Source: Candidatus Forterrea multitransposorum CG_2015-17_Forterrea_25_41 (GTDB lineage: Archaea > Iainarchaeota > Iainarchaeia > Iainarchaeales > CSSED10-239). Taken from it: a stretch of DNA of 64,000 bases. Both the position numbers and the translations under genes were made by a program. Of the stretch, positions 25,172 to 55,335 are shown one piece after another (position 1 is the first letter of the stretch; each line of letters starts with the position of its first letter). The notes under the pieces are model-generated. The model made no database searches and had not been told where the DNA came from. It was given only the letters and a program-made list of their open reading frames with translations. The stretch spans positions 736,001 through 800,000 of the forward strand of contig CP045477.1 of the NCBI GenBank assembly GCA_009392915.1, read 5' to 3'.

Positions 25172-25537
25172 ATGAAAATAACTTCTGAGATTTGGAGCAA
25201 TTTATTTTTTTTAATACCTTTACTTTTAAGTGCACAATATAAAATGTATGTGTACACAGGGCTTACGCTTGTGCTTTTTATTTTCTCTACATTTTACCAC
25301 CTCTCAAATAAAAATAAATTTAAGCTATTGGACAAAATATTTGCTTACTTTATAATTGCTTATAATGTATATTTGTTTTACTTAGCTAACTTCAAGATAA
25401 TTTATTTTGGAACTGCTTTTTTATTTGTTTTAATAGGAGTTTACTTTTTGTATATTAAAAAGAACGATGATTGGCAATGGCATTTATCATCCTCAATTGT
25501 AAGCGTACTTTCTATTCTAGCTTACTCTTCAATTTAG
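25172..25537 (+). CDS. small membrane protein
   Basis: 121 aa with four hydrophobic helices. Confidence 0.35.
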   Translation: MKITSEIWSNLFFLIPLLLSAQYKMYVYTGLTLVLFIFSTFYHLSNKNKFKLLDKIFAYFIIAYNVYLFYLANFKIIYFGTAFLFVLIGVYFLYIKKNDDWQWHLSSSIVSVLSILAYSSI

Positions 25538-25607
25538 AAAAAACAAAAATCTTTTTAAGCCCTTTCTATCATATATATAAATATATTAATTCTATAAGGA
25601 AAAAATT

Positions 25608-27791
25608 ATGGTTGAAAAAATAATTTTAACTGTTAAAGAAACAGATATTAAAGATGCTTTGAAAGGTATTGCAAAAATAGATCCTCTTGTTTTTGATAAA
25701 ATGAAATTAACTATTGGAGATGTAATATTAATTGAAGGATCTAAAAGAGCATTAGCTTATGCAACTAGAGGTACAGAGCTAGATGCTGGTTTAAATCAAA
25801 TTAAAATAGATGGTATTGTAAGACATAACTCTGGTGCATCAATAGATGATTCTGTTTTTATTGAAAAAGCAAATGTATTACCTTGTGAAACAATTAACCT
25901 TGCACCTATTATTGAAAAAAATAAAAAAATAAATTTAAATAAAGATGTTGAAAGTTTAATTAAAGAAAAATTATTAAATATTAATATTGTTGAAAAAAAC
26001 ATAGTTAAGATTCCAGGACTTCCTATTCTAACAGAAGATGGTTATAGAGACTTACAATTAATTGTAAATAAAACAATTCCTAAAAATGCTGTAAGGATTA
26101 CTGAAAATACAAAAGTAATTATTTCAGAAAAAGCAGAAGATTCAAAGACTCCTTCTATGACATATGATGATATAGGGGGTCTTAAAAAAGAAATTGAAGC
26201 TATTAGAGAAATGGTTGAACTTCCTATAAAAAGACCAGAGATTTTTAAAAAGCTAGGTATTTCTCCACCTAAAGGAGTTTTACTTTATGGACCTCCAGGA
26301 ACTGGAAAAACTTTACTTGCAAAAGCAGTAGCATCTGAAACTGATGCAAAATTTATAACTATTAACGGTCCAGAAATAATTACTGCTCAAGTTGGAAAAT
26401 CAGAAGAAAATTTAAGAGATATCTTTAAAGATGCAGAAGAGAATGCACCTGCAATTATTTTTATTGATGAAATTGATGCTATTGCTCCTAAAAGAGATAA
26501 AGCACATACATCTGATTTTAATAAATCATTATTAGCACAACTTTTAACATTAATGGATGGGCTTACAGCAAGAGGACAAGTTGTTGTTATTGCTGCAACA
26601 AATATGCCAGATTCAATTGATGTGGCTTTAAGAAGACCAGGAAGATTTGATAGAGAACTTGAAATTAATGTTCCTGATAAAGACGCAAGAAAAGAAATAT
26701 TACAAGTTCATATTAGAGGAATGCCTATTAAAGATCTTAACATAGATGAAATTATAGAAATTACAAATGGATTTTCTGGAGCTGATATTTCTGCACTCTG
26801 TAAAGAAGCTGCATTAAAAGCAATTAAAAGATTAATGCCTTTAATAAATAAAGAAAATGGAAAACACTTATCAAGAGAGATATTAGATAAATTAATTATA
26901 ACTCATCAAGATTTCTTGGACGCATTAAATGTTGTAGAACCTTCTGCATTAAGAGAAGTTCAAGTTCAAATACCAACAACCACTTGGAATGATATTGGTG
27001 GTCTTGATGAGCAAAAACAAAAATTAAAAGAAATGATTGAATGGCCTTTAAAATATCCTGATAAATTTAAAGAATTAAAATTAACACCTCCTGCAGGTGT
27101 TTTACTTTTTGGACCACCTGGTACTGGAAAAACATTAATTGCAAAAGCAATAGCAAATGAAAGCTCTGCAAATTTTATATCTTTAAAAACATCTGAAATA
27201 AAACAAAGTCTTCAAGGTGAATCTGAAAAGAAAATTAGAGATGTTTTTAAAAAAGCAAGACAACTTGCACCTGCAATTATTTTCTTTGATGAAATTGATG
27301 CAATTACAAGTATTAGAACAAATAATACTGCAAATTCTGATTATAATAATAGTATAATTTCACAATTATTAACAGAAATGGATGGTGTTTCAAAATTAAA
27401 AGATATTGTTATTATAGGTGCAACTAACAGGATAGATATTGTAGATACGGCATTTTTAAGACCAGGAAGATTTGATTTAAAATTAGAAATTCCAAATCCA
27501 GATTTAAAATCAAGAGAAAAAATATTTGAAGTTTATTTAAATAAAATGAATACTGATAAAAATATAAATATTAAAGAAATTGCAAAAACAACTGATGCTC
27601 TTTCAGGTGCTGAAATAGAATCTATTGTTAGAGAAGCTGGTATGGATGTTTTAAGAGAAAACATATCAGGTAATGAACAAAGTCTTTTAATAACTGAAAA
27701 ACATATTAAAAAAGCAATTAAAGAAATAAAAAATATAGAAAAAGAAAAAGGGAAAAATAAAAAAAATAATTTAGAAAAAGGTGTTATATAA
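25608..27791 (+). CDS. cdc48: AAA+ ATPase Cdc48/VCP (two AAA domains)
   Basis: An N-terminal Cdc48-N-like domain, then two Walker A boxes GPPGTGKT, two Walker B boxes ([18 protein letters not shown]) and second-region-of-homology arginines. Confidence 0.95.
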
Positions 27792-42998: not shown

Positions 42999-45900
42999 TT
43001 AATGTCTTAATATTTTTTTCTTTTTCTCAGCTATGGTTTTTTCTTTCTTTTTATTACCCAACCTTAAATAAGCATATAAACTAACGAATAAAACTACAAT
43101 AATTGTAATTAAAATATATTGTGTTTTTGTTGAATTTTTCGAAACAGGATTTGTTTGTTTTAAAACATAAATTACATCAAGATATTTTTCATCATCATAA
43201 TTTGTTTTTGCAAAATTAAGTGTTTCAACATCATATTCTTTTTTTTGATAATCTATTATTTCTTTTTTAGCATCATCTTTTATTTCAATTAAACCAGAGG
43301 TTAAATTATCATAATCTGATTTTATTTTTTCAATTCTATTTATTGTTTCTAAAGAAATGGCATTAAGTGCACCTTTGTAGTCTTTTTCATTATATTTTTC
43401 ATCAAAGTTAGATAATTCTTTATTGAAAAGTACACTTTCTAAAAAAGCATAATTTTTTTCTAATCTTTTTGCATCGTTTTCTGTAATTCCAGAAAAATAC
43501 CCAATTGAATAAAGATCAGTTAAAGTATATGTTTCATATAACAAATATGTTTTTGTAATTATTTCATTAATTTTGTCTTCTTCTAAATTATTTGTTATTG
43601 GGTTAATGTAATAATAAAGTTCTTCAGCTTTTTCTTTTAGTTTCTGATTAATTATATCTTTAATTTCTGTAATGTTTTTATCTTTACTTAATAAATCTAA
43701 ATCTATGTTTTCTAAATTATTTTCATTAATAATTTCATTAAGTTCTTTAAATTCAGCAATTTCTAAACTTTTAGTGTCGTTTTGTAAGTCCTTTTCTCTT
43801 TTTTTAATATCTATTAATAACTGTATTAAATCTTTTTCTGCTAAAACCATATTTTGATATTTATTACTTTCTATTTTTTCTAATTTGTTTTCTTCAAAAG
43901 AAGTTAGTTCTTTTTGATAAATCTCATTTAAAGTAATTAAATAATTTTCTTCAATAATTTGATAATGTTTGTTTTTTTCTAATAGTTTTTGTAAGGTGTT
44001 ATAATAACTGTAAATAGTTTCTATTTCATTAATACTATATTCTTCAGAATATGGTTTGTCCAACAAATATTTCAATTCTTTAATTGATTCTTTTTGAATA
44101 TCTAAAAATCTAGTGTTTCTAAGCTCTTCTGCTGCTAAAATTATTTCTCTAATTTCTTCATAAACTTTATTCTTTTCAATTAATGTTTTTAAAACAAATT
44201 CTAAAACTTCATCTTTTTTAATCTCTATATTATAAATTAAGTTTCCATTTTCTTCAAATAAAGTAATTTCTTTATTATTTTTATAAAAAGTATTAATTTC
44301 GTTTTCTTTAGTTTCTTTAATAATTAATTTTTGATTAATTTTTTCAAAAAATTTATTCTTTAAAGAAATATTTGTTGTTGTAATAAATTTATCACTACTT
44401 ATTTCTTCAATATTTTTAGATAGGTTATTTTCAAATACAGGTCCATAGACATAAAATTCATTTTCTTTTTTTGTATAATAATAAATATTATTTTCTTCTA
44501 TAATAACATCTTCATTTTTAGATATAAATCCATCAATAAATAAAAGTGAATCATATATTCCTTCTACTTCGTTTTCAATTGTAATTTTAATAATACTTTC
44601 TTTTAATGATAAATAAATTATTTCATAATTTATATTTTTATTATTCTCATAATCTACTAAGAAATAATTTTTACCAGGATATATAGTGTGTATCTTTATT
44701 TGTGTTTTATTAATAAGTAACCCAGGATCTTTAGATACTAGGTTTAAATAATTATTTTCTATTTCAATATTTAAAATAATTTCAGAGAAGTTATTTATTA
44801 ATTCAAAATAATATTTATCATCTATTTTTTTAATAGTGTAGTTTTTATTTTCTTGAATGATCTTTTTAATGATTAAATCTATTTCTCTTTCAATATTATT
44901 TATTTTTTCTTGATTTTCATTAATATTTATAATTAACTCAACATTATTTTTTTGTTTTATTTCCTTTACATCTTTTTCAATTTCACTAATTATTTCATAA
45001 TTTTCTTCAAGTTTATTTTCAACATATATTTCATTAATTTTATTTTCTATTTCTTTAATTCTTTTTTTAATTATAATTATTTTTTCATTACTTTCAAGTT
45101 TATAATTTATGTTGTTAATGTGTTCTAAACAATCTTCTTCTGTTGAATAAATATATAATTCATAATCTTTAACTTCTTCAATTTCGCTTTCAATAACACT
45201 ATAAATTAACTCTTGGCAATTTTGTATTTCATTTGCATTTTTTATTTTTTCACAATAATTTAATTTTTCAAGAAGATTGTCACTTTCTTTATATTGACTA
45301 ATTAATCTTGATATATATAGATTACTTTGTTCTTCTAGATTTTCAACTAAAATATCACAAGCAAACAGTTGAGAGTTTTCTAACTTTTCTTTTTCAACAA
45401 TTTCTTGGTTTTGTAAAATTTCTAAATTAATTTCTTTTAATTCTGATAAATATTTTCCAAAAGTAATTGTTTTATTTTCAAAGTAATTTTTTTGTTTTAA
45501 ATAATAATTATATTTTTCAGTAGTTAAATATTCTTTATTTTTTTCAATTTCTTTTTGATAATCTTCTATTTTATTATAAATTACATCTAAATTTTCAGTT
45601 ATTCTATTATTAATAATTATAAATTCTGTAACTAATGATTTTTCTTTTCCAACCAACTTATCCATTAAAATATAAAAATTATATCCATCTAGTTTATCTA
45701 AATTATAGTTTATGTTTCTTAAATCTTCTATGTTAGATAATTTTTTATATACAAAATTATTTATTCTTAAAATTTCAGGAAGATTAATTTCTTGTGAATT
45801 AATTTCTTTTTCATAGATTTGTAAATAATACAAAGTTAGATCAGATACATTTTCTTTTGCAAGATAGGTTTCTCTAAAACCTAATTCTTTAGAATATACA

Positions 45901-46487
45901 TGTAATTCTTTAATTTCTTGATTTACTTTTGATAAATAACTTTCATTTTCTATTTGTTTTTTCATAAAATTAATATTATCATTTAATAATATATAATCTT
46001 GAAATATTTCTTCTTCAGGAATTAGGTTAACTTCTTGCTGTTCTAAAAATAAGGTATAATCAATAATAAGATACATGCTTTTTTTAGTTGCATTATCAAC
46101 ATATGAAAAGGTTTTAGAAAAAAGGTCCATTACATCATTATAATTATCTAAAATTGTTTTGATGTTCTCTTTTCTACACCCTTCATTCAATAAATCTAGT
46201 TCTTTTTTAGTAAGTGTATAATAATAATGACTGGATGCTAAGTAATTTTTATAAGTATCTATATTTTGACTTAAAGAAAGAGGTATTTTGTTATTTTTTT
46301 CAATAGATAATTTTTCAATTTCAGTAAAACATTTATTTTGAGAAGTACAATCATCAATAGAAGTAGAGGAATAATGAGTTAAAGCAAGACAAGCTTGCTT
46401 TTCTCTAGTGGTTATAAATTCAAGGCAACCTGAAAGGCTTACTAGTAAAATCAATAAAAAATATATGTATATTTTTTTATCAATCAA
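42999..46487 (-). CDS. giant coiled-coil surface protein (signal peptide with possible lipobox, C-terminal TM anchor)
   Basis: 1162 aa. The N-terminus LLILLVSLSGCLEF suggests a signal peptide. About 1000 aa are E/K/N/I/L-rich with heptad-like character. The C-terminus has a TM helix plus a basic tail (NKKKEKTIAEKKKK). Confidence 0.5.
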   Translation of the reverse strand: MIDKKIYIYFLLILLVSLSGCLEFITTREKQACLALTHYSSTSIDDCTSQNKCFTEIEKLSIEKNNKIPLSLSQNIDTYKNYLASSHYYYTLTKKELDLLNEGCRKENIKTILDNYNDVMDLFSKTFSYVDNATKKSMYLIIDYTLFLEQQEVNLIPEEEIFQDYILLNDNINFMKKQIENESYLSKVNQEIKELHVYSKELGFRETYLAKENVSDLTLYYLQIYEKEINSQEINLPEILRINNFVYKKLSNIEDLRNINYNLDKLDGYNFYILMDKLVGKEKSLVTEFIIINNRITENLDVIYNKIEDYQKEIEKNKEYLTTEKYNYYLKQKNYFENKTITFGKYLSELKEINLEILQNQEIVEKEKLENSQLFACDILVENLEEQSNLYISRLISQYKESDNLLEKLNYCEKIKNANEIQNCQELIYSVIESEIEEVKDYELYIYSTEEDCLEHINNINYKLESNEKIIIIKKRIKEIENKINEIYVENKLEENYEIISEIEKDVKEIKQKNNVELIININENQEKINNIEREIDLIIKKIIQENKNYTIKKIDDKYYFELINNFSEIILNIEIENNYLNLVSKDPGLLINKTQIKIHTIYPGKNYFLVDYENNKNINYEIIYLSLKESIIKITIENEVEGIYDSLLFIDGFISKNEDVIIEENNIYYYTKKENEFYVYGPVFENNLSKNIEEISSDKFITTTNISLKNKFFEKINQKLIIKETKENEINTFYKNNKEITLFEENGNLIYNIEIKKDEVLEFVLKTLIEKNKVYEEIREIILAAEELRNTRFLDIQKESIKELKYLLDKPYSEEYSINEIETIYSYYNTLQKLLEKNKHYQIIEENYLITLNEIYQKELTSFEENKLEKIESNKYQNMVLAEKDLIQLLIDIKKREKDLQNDTKSLEIAEFKELNEIINENNLENIDLDLLSKDKNITEIKDIINQKLKEKAEELYYYINPITNNLEEDKINEIITKTYLLYETYTLTDLYSIGYFSGITENDAKRLEKNYAFLESVLFNKELSNFDEKYNEKDYKGALNAISLETINRIEKIKSDYDNLTSGLIEIKDDAKKEIIDYQKKEYDVETLNFAKTNYDDEKYLDVIYVLKQTNPVSKNSTKTQYILITIIVVLFVSLYAYLRLGNKKKEKTIAEKKKKILRH

Positions 46488-52951: not shown

Positions 52952-53212
52952 ATGTACAAATATGCTATTGCAAGACAACTTGCTACAAAAAAATTAATTA
53001 CAAACAGAGGAGACAATATCGGACGTTTAATTGATTTAATGGTAAATGAACAATCAGGAGAAATAGAATCTATTTTAGTTGAAGTAGATCCTGCATCTGC
53101 ATTTATACAAAAATTAAGTTTACAAGGAAACATGCTTGAGATACCTTACAAGAGTGTTTTAGCTGTAAGTGATGTTTTTATAGTAGACGAAGGTCAAGTA
53201 CAAAAAGAATAA
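52952..53212 (+). CDS. PRC-barrel-like domain protein (tentative), paralogous to 32941..33303
   Basis: 86 aa. LITNRGDNIGRLIDLMVNEQSGEIESILV matches the PRC-barrel pattern. A strong SD (GTGAGGA) precedes the start. Confidence 0.4.
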   Translation: MYKYAIARQLATKKLITNRGDNIGRLIDLMVNEQSGEIESILVEVDPASAFIQKLSLQGNMLEIPYKSVLAVSDVFIVDEGQVQKE

Positions 53213-53220
53213 ATTTTTAT

Positions 53221-54267
53221 TTATTCTTTCTTCTCTATTGTATATGTCTTTTTCTTTTGATTAATTTCAGTAATATATAGTTTAATATTTTTTTCTTCTA
53301 AATAATTATTTATTTTTAAAATAATTTCTTTAGAATCTATTTTTTTAAAAGTAGCTTTTTCAATAATTTTATTTATTTGGTCTACAAGTGTAAAATTAGA
53401 ATAAATAAATTCTCCTTCTTTTTCAAGAGTCTTTATTTTTTCTTCAAACTGTTCTTTTTTATCTTCTTGTGATTTTAGTATTTCTGAAACTTTGTTTTTT
53501 TTAATAGTTTCTTTAACTTCTTCTTTTTTTTCAAAGAAATTTTTAAACTCGTTTTCAAAAGAATTAAATATATCTTCTCCATCTCTTGAAATTATAAAAC
53601 TATTTTTATTATTTTTATTGATTTTTTTTACCCCTGGGTTTTCAAGCTCATAATTTTGGTAAATATTTTCAATTAATTGCTTTTTAGAATCTAATATATC
53701 ATTAATTTCCATAGGAGCAATATTATATTTTCTTGAAAGCACTCTAATTTTTTCAGGATCTGTTAAATCTTTTAATTCTTCTTCTATTTCTTTTTTATTT
53801 TTAAGTTTAATATCTTCTCCAGAAGGGAAATTATAAGTTTCTCCTTTCTGAATAGTTCTATCTTTCCATTCTTCTTTTTGTCTTGAGGTTATTATCTTAA
53901 AATTTTCATCTGTTAAAATTACATTTGATTTTGAAAAGAATTCAAATATTAAATAATATTTATCAAGTTTAAAACAAATTACTTTATTATTTTTATCTTG
54001 ATAGATATCATGTATTCTTTGATTATATAATTTTTTTTTAAGATATTTTTCAAATCCTAAAATTTCTGAAACTGGAAAAGTATGTTTTGGTAAAAAACAT
54101 ATTTCAGGAGTTATAATTAGTTCTTTTGTTTTTTTAGAATGTATTTTTATTTTCCATATCTTGTTATCAATAGTCTGCACATTATTAATATATCCTAAAT
54201 TAAATTCTTCTTTTAATTTTTTAGCGATATAATAAAAAACAGTACTTGTGGTTTGTATATTTTCCAT
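53221..54267 (-). CDS. NFACT-N domain protein (Rqc2/NEMF/FbpA-like, truncated form lacking NFACT-R)
   Basis: The first ~150 aa align block-for-block with the NEMF N-terminus: LGYINNVQTIDNKIWKIKIH, ELIITPEICFLPKHTFP, FEKYLKKKLYNQRIHDIYQD and YYLIFEFFSKSNVILTDENFKII. An HhH-like segment and a coiled coil follow. No GSH-type NFACT-R motif is present. Confidence 0.6.
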   Translation of the reverse strand: MENIQTTSTVFYYIAKKLKEEFNLGYINNVQTIDNKIWKIKIHSKKTKELIITPEICFLPKHTFPVSEILGFEKYLKKKLYNQRIHDIYQDKNNKVICFKLDKYYLIFEFFSKSNVILTDENFKIITSRQKEEWKDRTIQKGETYNFPSGEDIKLKNKKEIEEELKDLTDPEKIRVLSRKYNIAPMEINDILDSKKQLIENIYQNYELENPGVKKINKNNKNSFIISRDGEDIFNSFENEFKNFFEKKEEVKETIKKNKVSEILKSQEDKKEQFEEKIKTLEKEGEFIYSNFTLVDQINKIIEKATFKKIDSKEIILKINNYLEEKNIKLYITEINQKKKTYTIEKKE

Positions 54268-54270
54268 AAA

Positions 54271-55335
54271 TTATTCATTACTATAATCTGTATATTCTAG
54301 GTTGTTATAAGAATATATTTTTTTAACTATTTTTTTATTGTTAAACCTATATTCTTCATAAAGTTTGTTTACATCAGTATTTTTATAAGTATCCATAGGT
54401 ATATTTTGAACAATATCTAAAATATAATAAGTTTCTTTAATCTTTGTACTTACAAAAGAATGTACTTTATCATCTTCAAGTAAAACTACTTCTATGCTTG
54501 ATAAGTTATCTTGCATTCCTTGCATTACAGAACAAAGAATAACTGATATTGTTTGTTCATCGCAAATTTTTTCAGAAATAATTTTTGAAAAATCCATCCA
54601 AAAAATAACTTTTAAATCATTTTCAATAACATCAATTTCTGTTCTTAGATAATTATATATTTTTCTAAGTGTTGTTAAATAATCTTTATTATAATCATAA
54701 GCAATTGGTGTGAATTTTGAAATTATACTTTTTATTGTTAAATCATTTGGTTTTACCATTTCTTTAAGTTGAGAAATAGTTTTTCTTTCATCTTCGTTTA
54801 TTAAATCTTTATATTTATTAATAATTATTGAATAATATTTAATTTTATTAATATCTTCTTCGCTAGCTTTTGTTTCTGTATTTTTTTTAATATTTTTAAT
54901 AAAATCTTCAAGTTCTTTAATTCTTTCTTTTAAATTTAAATTTTCAACTTCAAGTTCACTAACATCTCCTTTTATTTTAAGATTTTTAAATCTTAGTTCT
55001 TCTTCAGGAGAGTCATCTTTTTGTATTTTTGTAAGGTTTGAAACTTCTAAATTAATTTTAGTTTCTATTTTTTTAAGTTCGTCATTAATTTCTTTTAATG
55101 TTTTTGAATATATTGATTCATCAATACTTTTTGCTGTATATCTATAAGAAAGTTCTTTTTTTTGTTCTAAAAGTTCTTTTTTCTTAGTATTTAAATTTTC
55201 AATAATCTGCCATGTTTTTTGTTCTTTGTTAATAGGGTCTTTTTTCTTAACTCTTAAATTAACTATAGCTATAATTGTACCAAATGACAAAAATATAAAA
55301 ATTATTATTAATATCTGTGAAAAATTAATTGACAT
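54271..55335 (-). CDS. N-terminally anchored membrane protein with coiled coil
   Basis: 354 aa with an N-terminal TM (ILIIIFIFLSFGTIIAIV) then a K/E-rich coiled coil. Confidence 0.35.
   Translation of the reverse strand: MSINFSQILIIIFIFLSFGTIIAIVNLRVKKKDPINKEQKTWQIIENLNTKKKELLEQKKELSYRYTAKSIDESIYSKTLKEINDELKKIETKINLEVSNLTKIQKDDSPEEELRFKNLKIKGDVSELEVENLNLKERIKELEDFIKNIKKNTETKASEEDINKIKYYSIIINKYKDLINEDERKTISQLKEMVKPNDLTIKSIISKFTPIAYDYNKDYLTTLRKIYNYLRTEIDVIENDLKVIFWMDFSKIISEKICDEQTISVILCSVMQGMQDNLSSIEVVLLEDDKVHSFVSTKIKETYYILDIVQNIPMDTYKNTDVNKLYEEYRFNNKKIVKKIYSYNNLEYTDYSNE

What the first reader, a model, noticed from the sequence alone, without database searches (positions are those of the whole stretch)
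53221..54267. Truncated Rqc2/NEMF-like protein with NFACT-N but no NFACT-R
The N-terminal ~150 aa match the NEMF NFACT-N blocks closely. An HhH-like segment and a coiled coil follow. The protein stops at 348 aa with no sign of the NFACT-R/DUF814 domain (no GSH-type motif) in it or in either neighbouring gene. A minimal NFACT-N/HhH/coiled-coil form may retain tRNA or 50S binding without the canonical tailing domain architecture.
Basis: partly seen in the sequence, partly recalled or inferred. Interest (0 to 1): 0.5.

Follow-up and report, generated by a model that had tools for sequence, protein, structure and literature searches.

The report
N-terminal half of split RqcH
This intact archaeal gene encodes only the front half of the ribosome-rescue protein RqcH: in many tiny DPANN archaea the gene is split in two at this exact point, and in this lineage the front half always sits next to a membrane-anchored, protease-like partner gene that may be a new player in ribosome quality control.

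Summary
ORF 53221..54267(-) is a real 348-aa gene under purifying selection. It encodes NFACT-N, HhH, one long coiled-coil helix and part of the RqcH/NEMF middle domain. No NFACT-R is present in it, its neighbours, the whole 64-kb window, or 38 related loci (477 kb).

It is not a truncation. It ends at the same alignment column as hundreds of other ~330-400-aa archaeal "N-halves". Stand-alone ~255-290-aa "C-halves" (returning helix, NFACT-R, NFACT-C) begin at the next β-strand. One contig (L006) carries both halves, 3.5 kb apart. A split "predicted RNA-binding protein" recorded in Nanoarchaeota is probably the same gene.

Three things are specific to this Iainarchaeota-like clade:
- A ~355-aa partner gene always lies next to the N-half, 1-40 nt upstream in 37 of 38 pairs. 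It has a transmembrane helix, a coiled coil and a transglutaminase-like domain with invariant Cys-His-Asp.
- The Asp of the tRNA-binding "DR" motif is Asn in 64 of 64 members.
- No C-half could be located.

Whether a C-half exists elsewhere in this genome could not be tested and is the decisive open question. Novelty: a new variant of a known kind. Interest is moderate.

The parts
53221..54267 (-). Gene for the N-terminal half of split RqcH/NEMF (348 aa plus stop).
   Evidence: ORF. NCBIfam RqcH_arch E=2e-31, covering profile 6-375 of 645. AF2 pLDDT 90. Foldseek to Rqc2, NEMF and RqcH. dN/dS 0.14 against the 91%-identical orthologue. The exact protein is seen in 88 assembly blocks.
53818..54267 (-). 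NFACT-N domain (aa ~1-150). The canonical 'DR' motif reads N94-K95 here; the EIM-equivalent is E109-F110-F111.
   Evidence: Beta-rich lobe in the model. PDB profile alignment to Rqc2 'VDQDRIL'. Motif census. Foldseek also finds MutM/Fpg.
53584..53805 (-). HhH-type helical region plus beta-hairpin (aa ~155-228).
   Evidence: Helices 158-164, 170-181, 185-193, 198-206 and strands 212-227 in the model. The region is covered by Foldseek alignments to the FbpA/PavA N-terminal crystal structures, TM (normalised to target) 0.60-0.66.
53398..53571 (-). Outgoing coiled-coil helix CC1 (aa 233-290). No returning helix is present in this protein.
   Evidence: Single 58-residue helix in the model. It aligns to the first coiled-coil helix of NEMF, Rqc2 and full-length archaeal RqcH.
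53224..53397 (-). First part of the middle (M) domain (aa 291-348): two helices and a beta-hairpin. It ends exactly at the conserved split junction.
   Evidence: Model. Junction alignment: all N-halves end at the '..KKVIVDL' column of full-length P0159, and C-halves start at 'VNITIDLNKSLEENAS'. The C-terminus is conserved (I335, K338, Y342 in at least 90% of sequences).
54271..55335 (-). Partner gene (354 aa plus stop), 3 nt upstream of the N-half on the same strand. Layout: transmembrane helix, long coiled coil, C-terminal transglutaminase/papain-like domain.
   Evidence: Present next to the N-half in all 38 clade loci that include that side; gap of 1-40 nt in 37 same-strand pairs. dN/dS 0.07. 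Not a diverged C-half (hhalign probability 0.08%).
55255..55323 (-). Partner N-terminal hydrophobic transmembrane segment (aa ~5-27), followed by the basic stretch 'RVKKK'.
   Evidence: Read directly from the sequence and alignment A4. Placing the bulk of the protein in the cytoplasm is an inference from the positive-inside rule.
54274..54750 (-). Partner C-terminal domain (aa ~196-354) with invariant C268, H292 and D307: a putative transglutaminase-like cysteine peptidase fold.
   Evidence: Invariant columns in 24 orthologues. Sub-threshold but convergent Pfam hits on this segment: CEP76 peptidase-like in 12 of 24 (8.5e-5), DUF553 transglutaminase-like (best 5.8e-6), Transglut_core. The predicted secondary-structure order is a helix carrying the Cys followed by three strands carrying His and Asp, from a low-confidence model.

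Best explanation
The ORF is an intact, expressed-type gene for the N-terminal half of a split RqcH (archaeal NEMF/Rqc2 homologue). It comprises NFACT-N and HhH (the lobe that reads the anticodon stem of the P-site tRNA on an obstructed large subunit), the outgoing coiled-coil helix, and the first part of the middle domain, which in RqcH docks at the uL11 stalk base.

An ancestral gene was cut between two beta-strands of the middle domain. In DPANN archaea the rest of the protein (third strand, returning helix, NFACT-R, NFACT-C) is a separate ~260-285-aa protein encoded elsewhere.

Inferred: the two polypeptides reassemble through the antiparallel coiled coil and the shared sheet of the middle domain. 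The resulting two-chain RqcH binds 50S-peptidyl-tRNA complexes and drives template-free tailing.

In this Iainarchaeota-like clade the N-half is also co-transcribed with a membrane-anchored coiled-coil protein that carries a transglutaminase-like Cys-His-Asp domain. Inferred: this protein acts with the N-half, for example by tethering the rescue module to the membrane and/or processing the stalled chain.

Shown: the domain content, the split junction, the existence of separate C-halves in other lineages, and the partner linkage. Not shown: that this organism has a C-half, that any of these proteins interact physically, or any activity.
For: Identity:
- NCBIfam RqcH_arch E=2e-31 over profile positions 6-375 of 645.
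- PDB profile hits to Rqc2, NEMF and FbpA.
- AF2 pLDDT 90 and Foldseek E=1e-11 to 1e-6 to Rqc2, NEMF and RqcH.

A family, not an accident:
- 64 relatives at 34-92% identity, nearly all 341-383 aa.
- The deep profile search gave 2875 hits. Almost all of the top 150 are 330-400 aa, and only six are full length.

Split:
- Stand-alone C-halves of 251-290 aa with PF05670 dominate two searches (1124 and 3494 hits).
- They all start 'M.I.LDL.KS..ENA..YYE'.
- In a joint alignment with full-length proteins, every N-half (window included) ends at one column and every C-half starts right after it.
- L006 carries both halves 3.5 kb apart, with unrelated genes between them.
- The genome scan finds stand-alone C-halves in Woesearchaeota, Nanoarchaeota and Micrarchaeota, and full-length genes in methanogens, Asgard, Bathyarchaeia and others.
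- B. subtilis RqcH needs both the CC-M/uL11 contact and the NFACT-R/A-site-finger contact to bind the 50S subunit (10.1101/2020.09.03.281279). This argues that an N-half needs a C-half.
- A split 'predicted RNA-binding protein' is recorded in both sequenced Nanoarchaeota, at the same site (PMC3655853).

Real gene: dN/dS 0.14, the exact protein in 88 assembly blocks, and conserved synteny.

Partner.
Against: No C-half was found for this clade:
- none in the 64-kb window;
- none in 477 kb around 38 clade N-halves;
- none of the 240 listed C-halves could be tied to a clade contig.
These tests have low power, because in other DPANN genomes the halves are also unlinked, and the rest of the genome could not be read.

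The clade has replaced the Asp of the DR tRNA-binding motif with Asn in 64 of 64 members, whereas other short and full-length forms keep [D/E]R.

The protein is divergent enough to miss Pfam NFACT_N entirely and reaches only a quarter of the NCBIfam cutoff. It has also acquired a clade-specific partner. All of this is compatible with a change of function.
Confidence: 0.6

Rival explanations
1. The C-half has been lost in this clade and the N-half has been repurposed. It works as a two-protein module with the co-transcribed membrane-anchored partner. The partner's coiled coil replaces the returning helix, and its transglutaminase-like Cys-His-Asp domain replaces NFACT-R/NFACT-C. That could give, for example, a membrane-proximal system in which NFACT-N recognises tRNA on a stalled large subunit while the peptidase-like domain cleaves or releases the nascent chain.
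For: - The partner is adjacent in 38 of 38 loci, with gaps of 1-40 nt in the 37 same-strand pairs, across 41-91% N-half identity. Outside the clade it is absent next to P0063 and L006 and in 120 other loci.
- The partner has a long coiled coil followed by a globular domain, the same order as helix then NFACT-R in a C-half.
- Cys, His and Asp are invariant, and transglutaminase-like hits converge on that segment.
- The D-to-N change is fixed in 64 of 64 members.
- The N-half is strongly divergent.
- No C-half was found in the window or in 477 kb of clade DNA.
- The long CC1 helix has no partner within its own chain.
Against: - Absence of a C-half is not shown: the halves are unlinked in other DPANN genomes too, and more than 90% of the genome was never examined.
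- The N-half still ends exactly at the split junction, with a conserved terminal hairpin, as expected if it still pairs with the C-half's strand.
- One full-length protein (P0140) also has Asn at the DR position, so D-to-N need not mean loss of function.
- The partner shows no homology to a C-half.
- The partner's fold assignment is sub-threshold and its structure model is poor.
- No interaction evidence exists.
Confidence: 0.28
2. One reading: an autonomous minimal NFACT-N/HhH/coiled-coil protein that binds tRNA or the 50S subunit on its own, needing neither a C-half nor the partner.
For: In RqcH, NFACT-N and HhH contact the tRNA, and the tip of CC-M contacts uL11/H44. Both elements are present here.
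Against: - In B. subtilis, loss of the NFACT-R contact abolishes 50S association.
- A 58-residue helix with a hydrophobic seam and half a middle domain is unlikely to be stable alone (inference).
- The shared split junction and the strict operon with the partner point to function within a complex.
Confidence: 0.08
3. An artefact or pseudogene: a frameshift, assembly error or decaying remnant of a full-length rqcH.
For: Only that the protein covers about half of the RqcH_arch profile.
Against: - The stop codon abuts a convergent conserved gene.
- The same length and end point occur in hundreds of independent assemblies and lineages.
- dN/dS is 0.14.
- The AF2 model is confident.
Confidence: 0.01

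Closest known systems
RqcH (B. subtilis) / Rqc2 (yeast) / NEMF (human): the NFACT family, COG1293
   Same: NFACT-N, HhH, first coiled-coil helix and middle-domain segment are homologous by profile and by fold. The EIM-equivalent Glu and the 'WKDR...Y.FP' block are conserved.
   Different: Only the first ~55% of the architecture is present: no returning helix, NFACT-R or NFACT-C. The Asp of the DR motif is Asn. The score is far below the NCBIfam equivalog cutoff, and Pfam NFACT_N gives no hit.
Split rqcH of other DPANN archaea. N-halves such as the 363-aa ORF of L006, P0063, P0068 and P0170; C-halves such as P0258, P0231 and P0331. Probably also the split 'predicted RNA-binding protein' NEQ438/NEQ506 and Nst176/251 of Nanoarchaeota (PMC3655853).
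   Same: Same length class and exactly the same end point in the middle domain.
   Different: - Those N-halves keep [D/E]R and lack the transglutaminase-like partner gene.
- A companion C-half is documented for them but not for this clade.
- That the Nanoarchaeum split protein belongs to this family rests on my memory of the old COG1293 name and was not tested.
FbpA/PavA N-terminal fragments (PDB 3doa, 5h3x, 6pon)
   Same: They cover the same NFACT-N plus HhH lobe. Best structural superpositions: TM (normalised to target) 0.60-0.66, rmsd 3.6-4.1 A for 3doa and 5h3x.
   Different: Those are laboratory truncations of full-length bacterial proteins. The protein here is a natural gene product that also carries the coiled-coil helix and part of the middle domain.
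Solo NFACT-R proteins (eukaryotic CCDC25/Jlp2; Burroughs & Aravind 2014, PMC4075521)
   Same: They show that NFACT modules can exist as separate polypeptides with a short coiled coil.
   Different: They are the complementary module (NFACT-R, not NFACT-N). They arose by partial duplication alongside an intact NEMF, not by splitting the only copy.
Transglutaminase-like/papain-like cysteine peptidase domains (Pfam DUF553, CEP76 peptidase-like, Transglut_core), for the partner protein
   Same: Cys...His...Asp order and spacing, and weak hits that converge on that segment.
   Different: All hits are below the curated cutoffs. There is no sequence hit to any solved structure. The fusion to an N-terminal membrane anchor and a ~150-residue coiled coil, and the operon with NFACT-N, are not described in the papers I read.

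Membership tests
RqcH/NEMF/Rqc2 (NFACT family; NCBIfam NF041120 RqcH_arch) | NFACT-N domain (Fpg/MutM-like N-lobe) | tested here: met
   NCBIfam E=2e-31. Profile hits to Rqc2, NEMF and FbpA. Foldseek E=1e-11 to 1e-6, then MutM/Fpg. Caveat: Pfam PF05833 gives no hit at E<=1 for this sequence, although some clade members carry a precomputed PF05833 hit.
RqcH/NEMF/Rqc2 (NFACT family; NCBIfam NF041120 RqcH_arch) | HhH motifs after NFACT-N | tested here: met
   Helices 158-206 in the pLDDT-90 model, included in the ~250-column superpositions on 3doa, 5h3x and RqcH.
RqcH/NEMF/Rqc2 (NFACT family; NCBIfam NF041120 RqcH_arch) | Complete CC-M: two long antiparallel helices flanking the middle domain | tested here: not met
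   Only the outgoing helix (233-290) and the first part of the middle domain are present. The chain ends before the third strand and the returning helix.
RqcH/NEMF/Rqc2 (NFACT family; NCBIfam NF041120 RqcH_arch) | NFACT-R (DUF814, PF05670) and, in archaea and eukaryotes, NFACT-C | tested here: not met
   Absent from the protein and its neighbours, from all six-frame ORFs of the window and from 38 related loci.
RqcH/NEMF/Rqc2 (NFACT family; NCBIfam NF041120 RqcH_arch) | Score at or above the equivalog cutoff (400 bits) | tested here: not met
   109.5 bits.
RqcH/NEMF/Rqc2 (NFACT family; NCBIfam NF041120 RqcH_arch) | Conserved acidic-Arg 'DR' tRNA-binding motif (Rqc2 D98/R99; RqcH D97/R98) | tested here: not met
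   The window has N94-K95. The clade has Asn in 64 of 64 members, while other short and full-length forms have [D/E]R.
RqcH/NEMF/Rqc2 (NFACT family; NCBIfam NF041120 RqcH_arch) | Binds 50S-peptidyl-tRNA and drives template-free C-terminal tailing | not testable with these tools
   Needs biochemistry or cryo-EM.
DPANN-type split RqcH, N-half | Stand-alone protein of ~330-400 aa that ends at the conserved junction inside the middle domain | tested here: met
   Length distribution. Junction alignment with full-length proteins and C-halves.
DPANN-type split RqcH, N-half | A separate C-half gene (strand, returning helix, NFACT-R, NFACT-C) in the same genome | tested here: inconclusive
   Shown for another lineage (L006), and C-halves are abundant in DPANN genomes. 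None was found for this clade in the window or in 477 kb of flanks. The rest of the genome could not be read.
Transglutaminase-like / papain-like cysteine peptidase superfamily (partner protein, 54271..55335) | Catalytic Cys, His and Asp in that order, with the Cys at the start of a helix and the His and Asp on following strands | tested here: met
   C268, H292 and D307 are invariant in 24 orthologues. The secondary-structure order comes from a low-confidence model.
Transglutaminase-like / papain-like cysteine peptidase superfamily (partner protein, 54271..55335) | Significant match to a curated family model or to a solved structure | tested here: inconclusive
   Only sub-threshold hits: DUF553 best 5.8e-6, CEP76 peptidase-like best 5.7e-5, Transglut_core 0.036. 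No PDB sequence hit.

The most novel reading that the evidence does not exclude
In this Iainarchaeota-like clade the NFACT-R/NFACT-C half of RqcH has been lost and functionally replaced by the co-transcribed membrane-anchored protein. Its coiled coil would pair with the orphan CC1 helix of the N-half, and its transglutaminase-like Cys-His-Asp domain would sit where NFACT-R normally does, next to the A site. The result would be a previously unknown membrane-tethered ribosome quality-control module. In it, NFACT-N recognises the tRNA of an obstructed large subunit, and a thiol peptidase or esterase releases or trims the stalled chain instead of, or in addition to, tailing it.
Probability: 0.2. 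Interest if true: 0.8.

Novelty: new variant of a known kind. Interest (0 to 1): 0.5.

Why it matters
RqcH/NEMF is universal, but how archaea deal with the products of stalled translation is essentially unknown. They lack Listerin, and nothing is established downstream of tailing.

Two things here are useful:
- **A natural split.** Nature has cut RqcH at the tip of the coiled coil, the element that docks at the uL11 stalk base and opens like scissors during tRNA movement. Both pieces have been kept in many DPANN lineages. This is a ready-made split-protein experiment on how the two lobes cooperate.
- **A candidate new factor.** One clade has tied the tRNA-reading half, in a strictly conserved operon, to a membrane-anchored coiled-coil protein with an intact Cys-His-Asp triad. 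This is a concrete, testable candidate for a new archaeal RQC factor (release, trimming or membrane tethering).

If the C-half proves absent from these genomes, this would be a replacement of the NFACT-R module by an unrelated enzyme-like domain.

Tried and rejected
1. **Frameshift or longer fused protein.** Rejected: the stop abuts a convergent PRC-barrel gene, and all relatives have the same length.
2. **C-half elsewhere in the window.** A profile of C-halves was run against all six-frame ORFs, together with tblastn. Nothing was found.
3. **Partner as a diverged, permuted C-half.** Rejected: hhalign probability 0.08%.
4. **Linking N- and C-half clusters through identical 'longest contig' lengths.** Both matches were coincidences on different contigs: 4,588 bp for P0019/P0315 and 3,549 bp for P0046/P0442.
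It gave a useful survey of split versus fused genes but no locus attributable to the clade.
6. **Last protein search with a profile of the three most AT-rich C-halves.** The top 120 hits were all Woesearchaeota/Nanoarchaeota-type, and none lay on a clade contig.
7. **Look-ups of the most AT-biased C-halves on long contigs** (P0337, P0335). No N-half lay within 10 kb, and no genes allowed placement relative to the clade.
8. **Synteny via Cdc48.** In two other lineages the C-half lies just upstream of Cdc48. In the window that position holds a small membrane ORF, with no C-half remnant.
9. **Structure of the partner.** The single-sequence model was too poor in the C-terminal domain to justify a fold search.
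10. **Literature.** No paper in the library describes split or solo-N archaeal RqcH in an RQC context, or a transglutaminase-like partner.
Full report
**1. The observation.** An ATG-initiated ORF of 348 aa lies at 53221..54267 on the minus strand, exactly as reported. The window is about 24% GC. It carries archaeal housekeeping genes around the ORF: EF-1alpha, S10, the PolD large subunit, TYW3, DUF373, an SPFH protein, topoisomerase and Cdc48.
- Pfam gives no hit for the ORF at E<=1, not even NFACT_N.
- NCBIfam's archaeal RqcH model matches at E=2e-31 and 109.5 bits (cutoff 400). It aligns residues 12-345 to profile positions 6-375 of 645, so only the N-terminal half is matched.
- A profile of the protein and 33 relatives hits yeast Rqc2 (1.6e-13), human NEMF (7e-13) and the PavA/FbpA N-domain crystal structures. 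The alignment runs through the coiled coil into the NEMF middle domain.
- An AlphaFold2 model built on that alignment is confident (mean pLDDT 90, pTM 0.70). It shows a beta-rich lobe (1-140), HhH-type helices (158-206), a hairpin (212-227), a single 58-residue helix (233-290), and a small two-helix, two-strand unit (292-346).

So the homology and the domain order are real. 'Match closely' overstates it.

**2. Not an artefact.**
- The TAA stop is followed within 9 nt by the end of a convergent PRC-barrel gene, which has its own Pfam hit.
- Sixty-four relatives at 34-92% identity are nearly all 341-383 aa and are conserved to the last residues.
- The exact window protein occurs in 88 assembly blocks. 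One 122-kb ENA contig is 100% identical to the window over 20.8 kb.
- dN/dS against a 91%-identical orthologue is 0.14.

**3. What it is: one half of a split gene.** An exhaustive profile search of 1.84 billion representative proteins gave 2875 hits. Almost all of the best 150 are 330-400 aa, and only six are full length (585-747 aa). I used the C-terminal halves of those full-length proteins as queries.
- They found nothing in the window (best E 0.33 over 347 six-frame ORFs).
- They found more than a thousand proteins in the public collection. The best are mostly complete stand-alone proteins of 255-285 aa with PF05670 (NFACT-R), for example in Altiarchaeales, Altiarchaeota and Aenigmatarchaeota.
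- A second search with AT-rich C-halves gave 3494 hits. The top 120 are all 251-290 aa and are named Woesearchaeota, Nanoarchaeota or Nanobdellota.
- These C-halves all begin 'M.I.LDL.KS..ENA..YYE'.
- In a joint alignment with full-length proteins, every N-half (window, P0025, P0063, L006, P0068, P0170) ends at the column of '...KKVIVDL'. Every C-half starts at the next strand, 'VNITIDLNKSLEENAS'.
- On contig L006 a 363-aa N-half and a 283-aa C-half lie 3.5 kb apart, separated by three unrelated genes.
Stand-alone C-halves occur in Woesearchaeota (including the complete chromosome CP060219), Nanoarchaeota and Micrarchaeota. Fused genes of 600-700 aa occur in Methanobacteriaceae, Asgard archaea, Bathyarchaeia, Thermoplasmatales and some Aenigmatarchaeota.

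The break lies between two strands of the middle domain, at the tip of the coiled coil.

**4. Prior knowledge.**
- Podar et al. 2013 list a 'Predicted RNA-binding protein' split at the same site in N. equitans (NEQ438/506) and Nst1 (Nst176/251) (PMC3655853).
- RqcH is COG1293 (10.1101/2020.09.03.281279). From memory, that phrase was the old COG1293 name. I could not test that the two are the same gene.
- Burroughs & Aravind 2014 describe solo NFACT-R proteins but no split or solo-N archaeal forms (PMC4075521).
- NCBI's pipeline already names the pieces 'NFACT family protein' and 'NFACT RNA binding domain-containing protein'.

The split as such is therefore not new, although I found no discussion of it in the RQC literature held here.

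**5. What is special about this clade.** The closest named relatives are labelled 'Candidatus ainarchaeum'. I read this as Iainarchaeum (Iainarchaeota, DPANN). In 38 loci of the clade (41-91% N-half identity, 477 kb in total) three things hold.
- *No C-half nearby.* There is no NFACT-R/C-half hit, even with HMMER filters off.
- *A strictly linked partner gene.* A ~355-aa gene lies next to the N-half in every locus that includes that side. It is upstream on the same strand in 37 loci, with gaps of 1-40 nt (3 nt in the window), and on the opposite strand only in L154.
  - The partner (54271..55335 in the window) has an N-terminal hydrophobic helix followed by basic residues, about 150 residues of coiled coil, and a 160-residue domain with invariant C268, H292 and D307.
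  - It is not a diverged C-half (hhalign probability 0.08%), and it has no sequence relative among solved structures.
  - Pfam hits are all below their cutoffs, but they converge on the Cys-His-Asp segment. CEP76 peptidase-like matches 12 of 24 orthologues (best 8.5e-5). DUF553 'transglutaminase-like' reaches a best E of 5.8e-6 when the domain is scanned alone. Transglut_core matches 3 of 24.
  - Its dN/dS is 0.07.
  - The partner is absent next to non-clade N-halves and from 120 other loci.
- *A fixed change in the DR motif.* The Asp of the DR motif (Rqc2 D98/R99, RqcH D97/R98) is Asn in 64 of 64 clade members (NNR 41, NNK 22, DNR 1). By contrast, 126 other short N-halves and 52 full-length proteins almost all have [D/E]R. 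Mutation of this motif abolishes tRNA binding in B. subtilis. One full-length protein (P0140) also has Asn, so the change need not be inactivating.

**6. Mechanism.** In B. subtilis RqcH, NFACT-N and HhH touch only the anticodon stem-loop of the P-site tRNA. The protein holds on to the 50S subunit through just two contacts: the distal CC-M domain at uL11/H44, and NFACT-R at the A-site finger. Both are needed (10.1101/2020.09.03.281279). The window protein carries the tRNA-reading lobe and the uL11-docking tip but lacks the second anchor.
- *Most economical reading (about 0.6).* A C-half is encoded elsewhere in this genome, as in other DPANN archaea. The two chains would reassemble through the antiparallel coiled coil and the shared sheet of the middle domain. 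The partner would be an added, clade-specific accessory.
- *Alternative (about 0.28).* The C-half has been lost, and the partner's coiled coil and peptidase-like domain take its place.
- I could not decide between these. The available tests have low power, because the halves are unlinked elsewhere too.
- An autonomous minimal protein (about 0.08) and an artefact (about 0.01) are unlikely.

**7. Verdict.** The gene is the N-terminal half of a split RqcH: a member of a large but little-discussed DPANN family, and a distinct variant within it (transglutaminase-like operon partner, D-to-N change, no C-half located). I rate it a new variant of a known kind, with moderate interest (0.5). The interest would rise sharply if whole-genome searches show that the clade lacks NFACT-R.

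Noticed in passing
L097:5-3141 and L126:4073-7039; compare window 25172-27791: In two unrelated genomes the stand-alone RqcH C-half lies immediately upstream, on the same strand, of a Cdc48/VCP AAA ATPase (43-48% identical to window ORF 25608..27791). Cdc48 is part of eukaryotic RQC, so this could be a functional link in archaea. In the window the position upstream of Cdc48 holds a 121-aa DUF3522-like membrane ORF instead.
   Followed up: partly
window 52952-53212 (+): An 86-aa PRC-barrel protein converges on the N-half gene with only 8 nt between the two stop codons. This arrangement is conserved throughout the clade and also next to the outgroup N-half P0064. Its function is unknown; the tight convergent arrangement might matter for termination or regulation.
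   Followed up: no
L125:4077-4451, L050:6072-6458, L083:488-883: Pacearchaeota and Nanoarchaeota loci contain ORFs of only 125-132 aa that match just the NFACT-R core of the C-half profile (profile positions ~72-178, E=1e-13 to 1e-17). These may be solo NFACT-R proteins or a further fragmentation of the gene.
   Followed up: no
L055:5330-6954 and L019:5065-6841: In an Aenigmarchaeota MAG and a Methanobacterium MAG, N-terminal and C-terminal RqcH pieces are adjacent or overlapping ORFs on one strand, cut at positions other than the DPANN junction. These are probably frameshifts or assembly errors, or independent recent splits.
   Followed up: no
window 42999-64000 and L001, L004, L167: A long block is syntenic across the clade: PolD small and large subunits, S10, EF-1alpha, partner, N-half, PRC barrel, DUF373, SPFH/Band 7, TYW3, an Elp3-like radical-SAM protein, and a ~1160-aa protein with no family hit (window 42999..46487). 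The last of these is large, conserved and unannotated.
   Followed up: no
L119, L026, L045, L070-L072, L104, L112 (genome contigs records): Several records titled 'uncultured Methanosarcinales archaeon' have 20-33% GC and carry DPANN-type stand-alone C-halves. The taxonomic labels of these co-assembly MAGs look doubtful.
   Followed up: no
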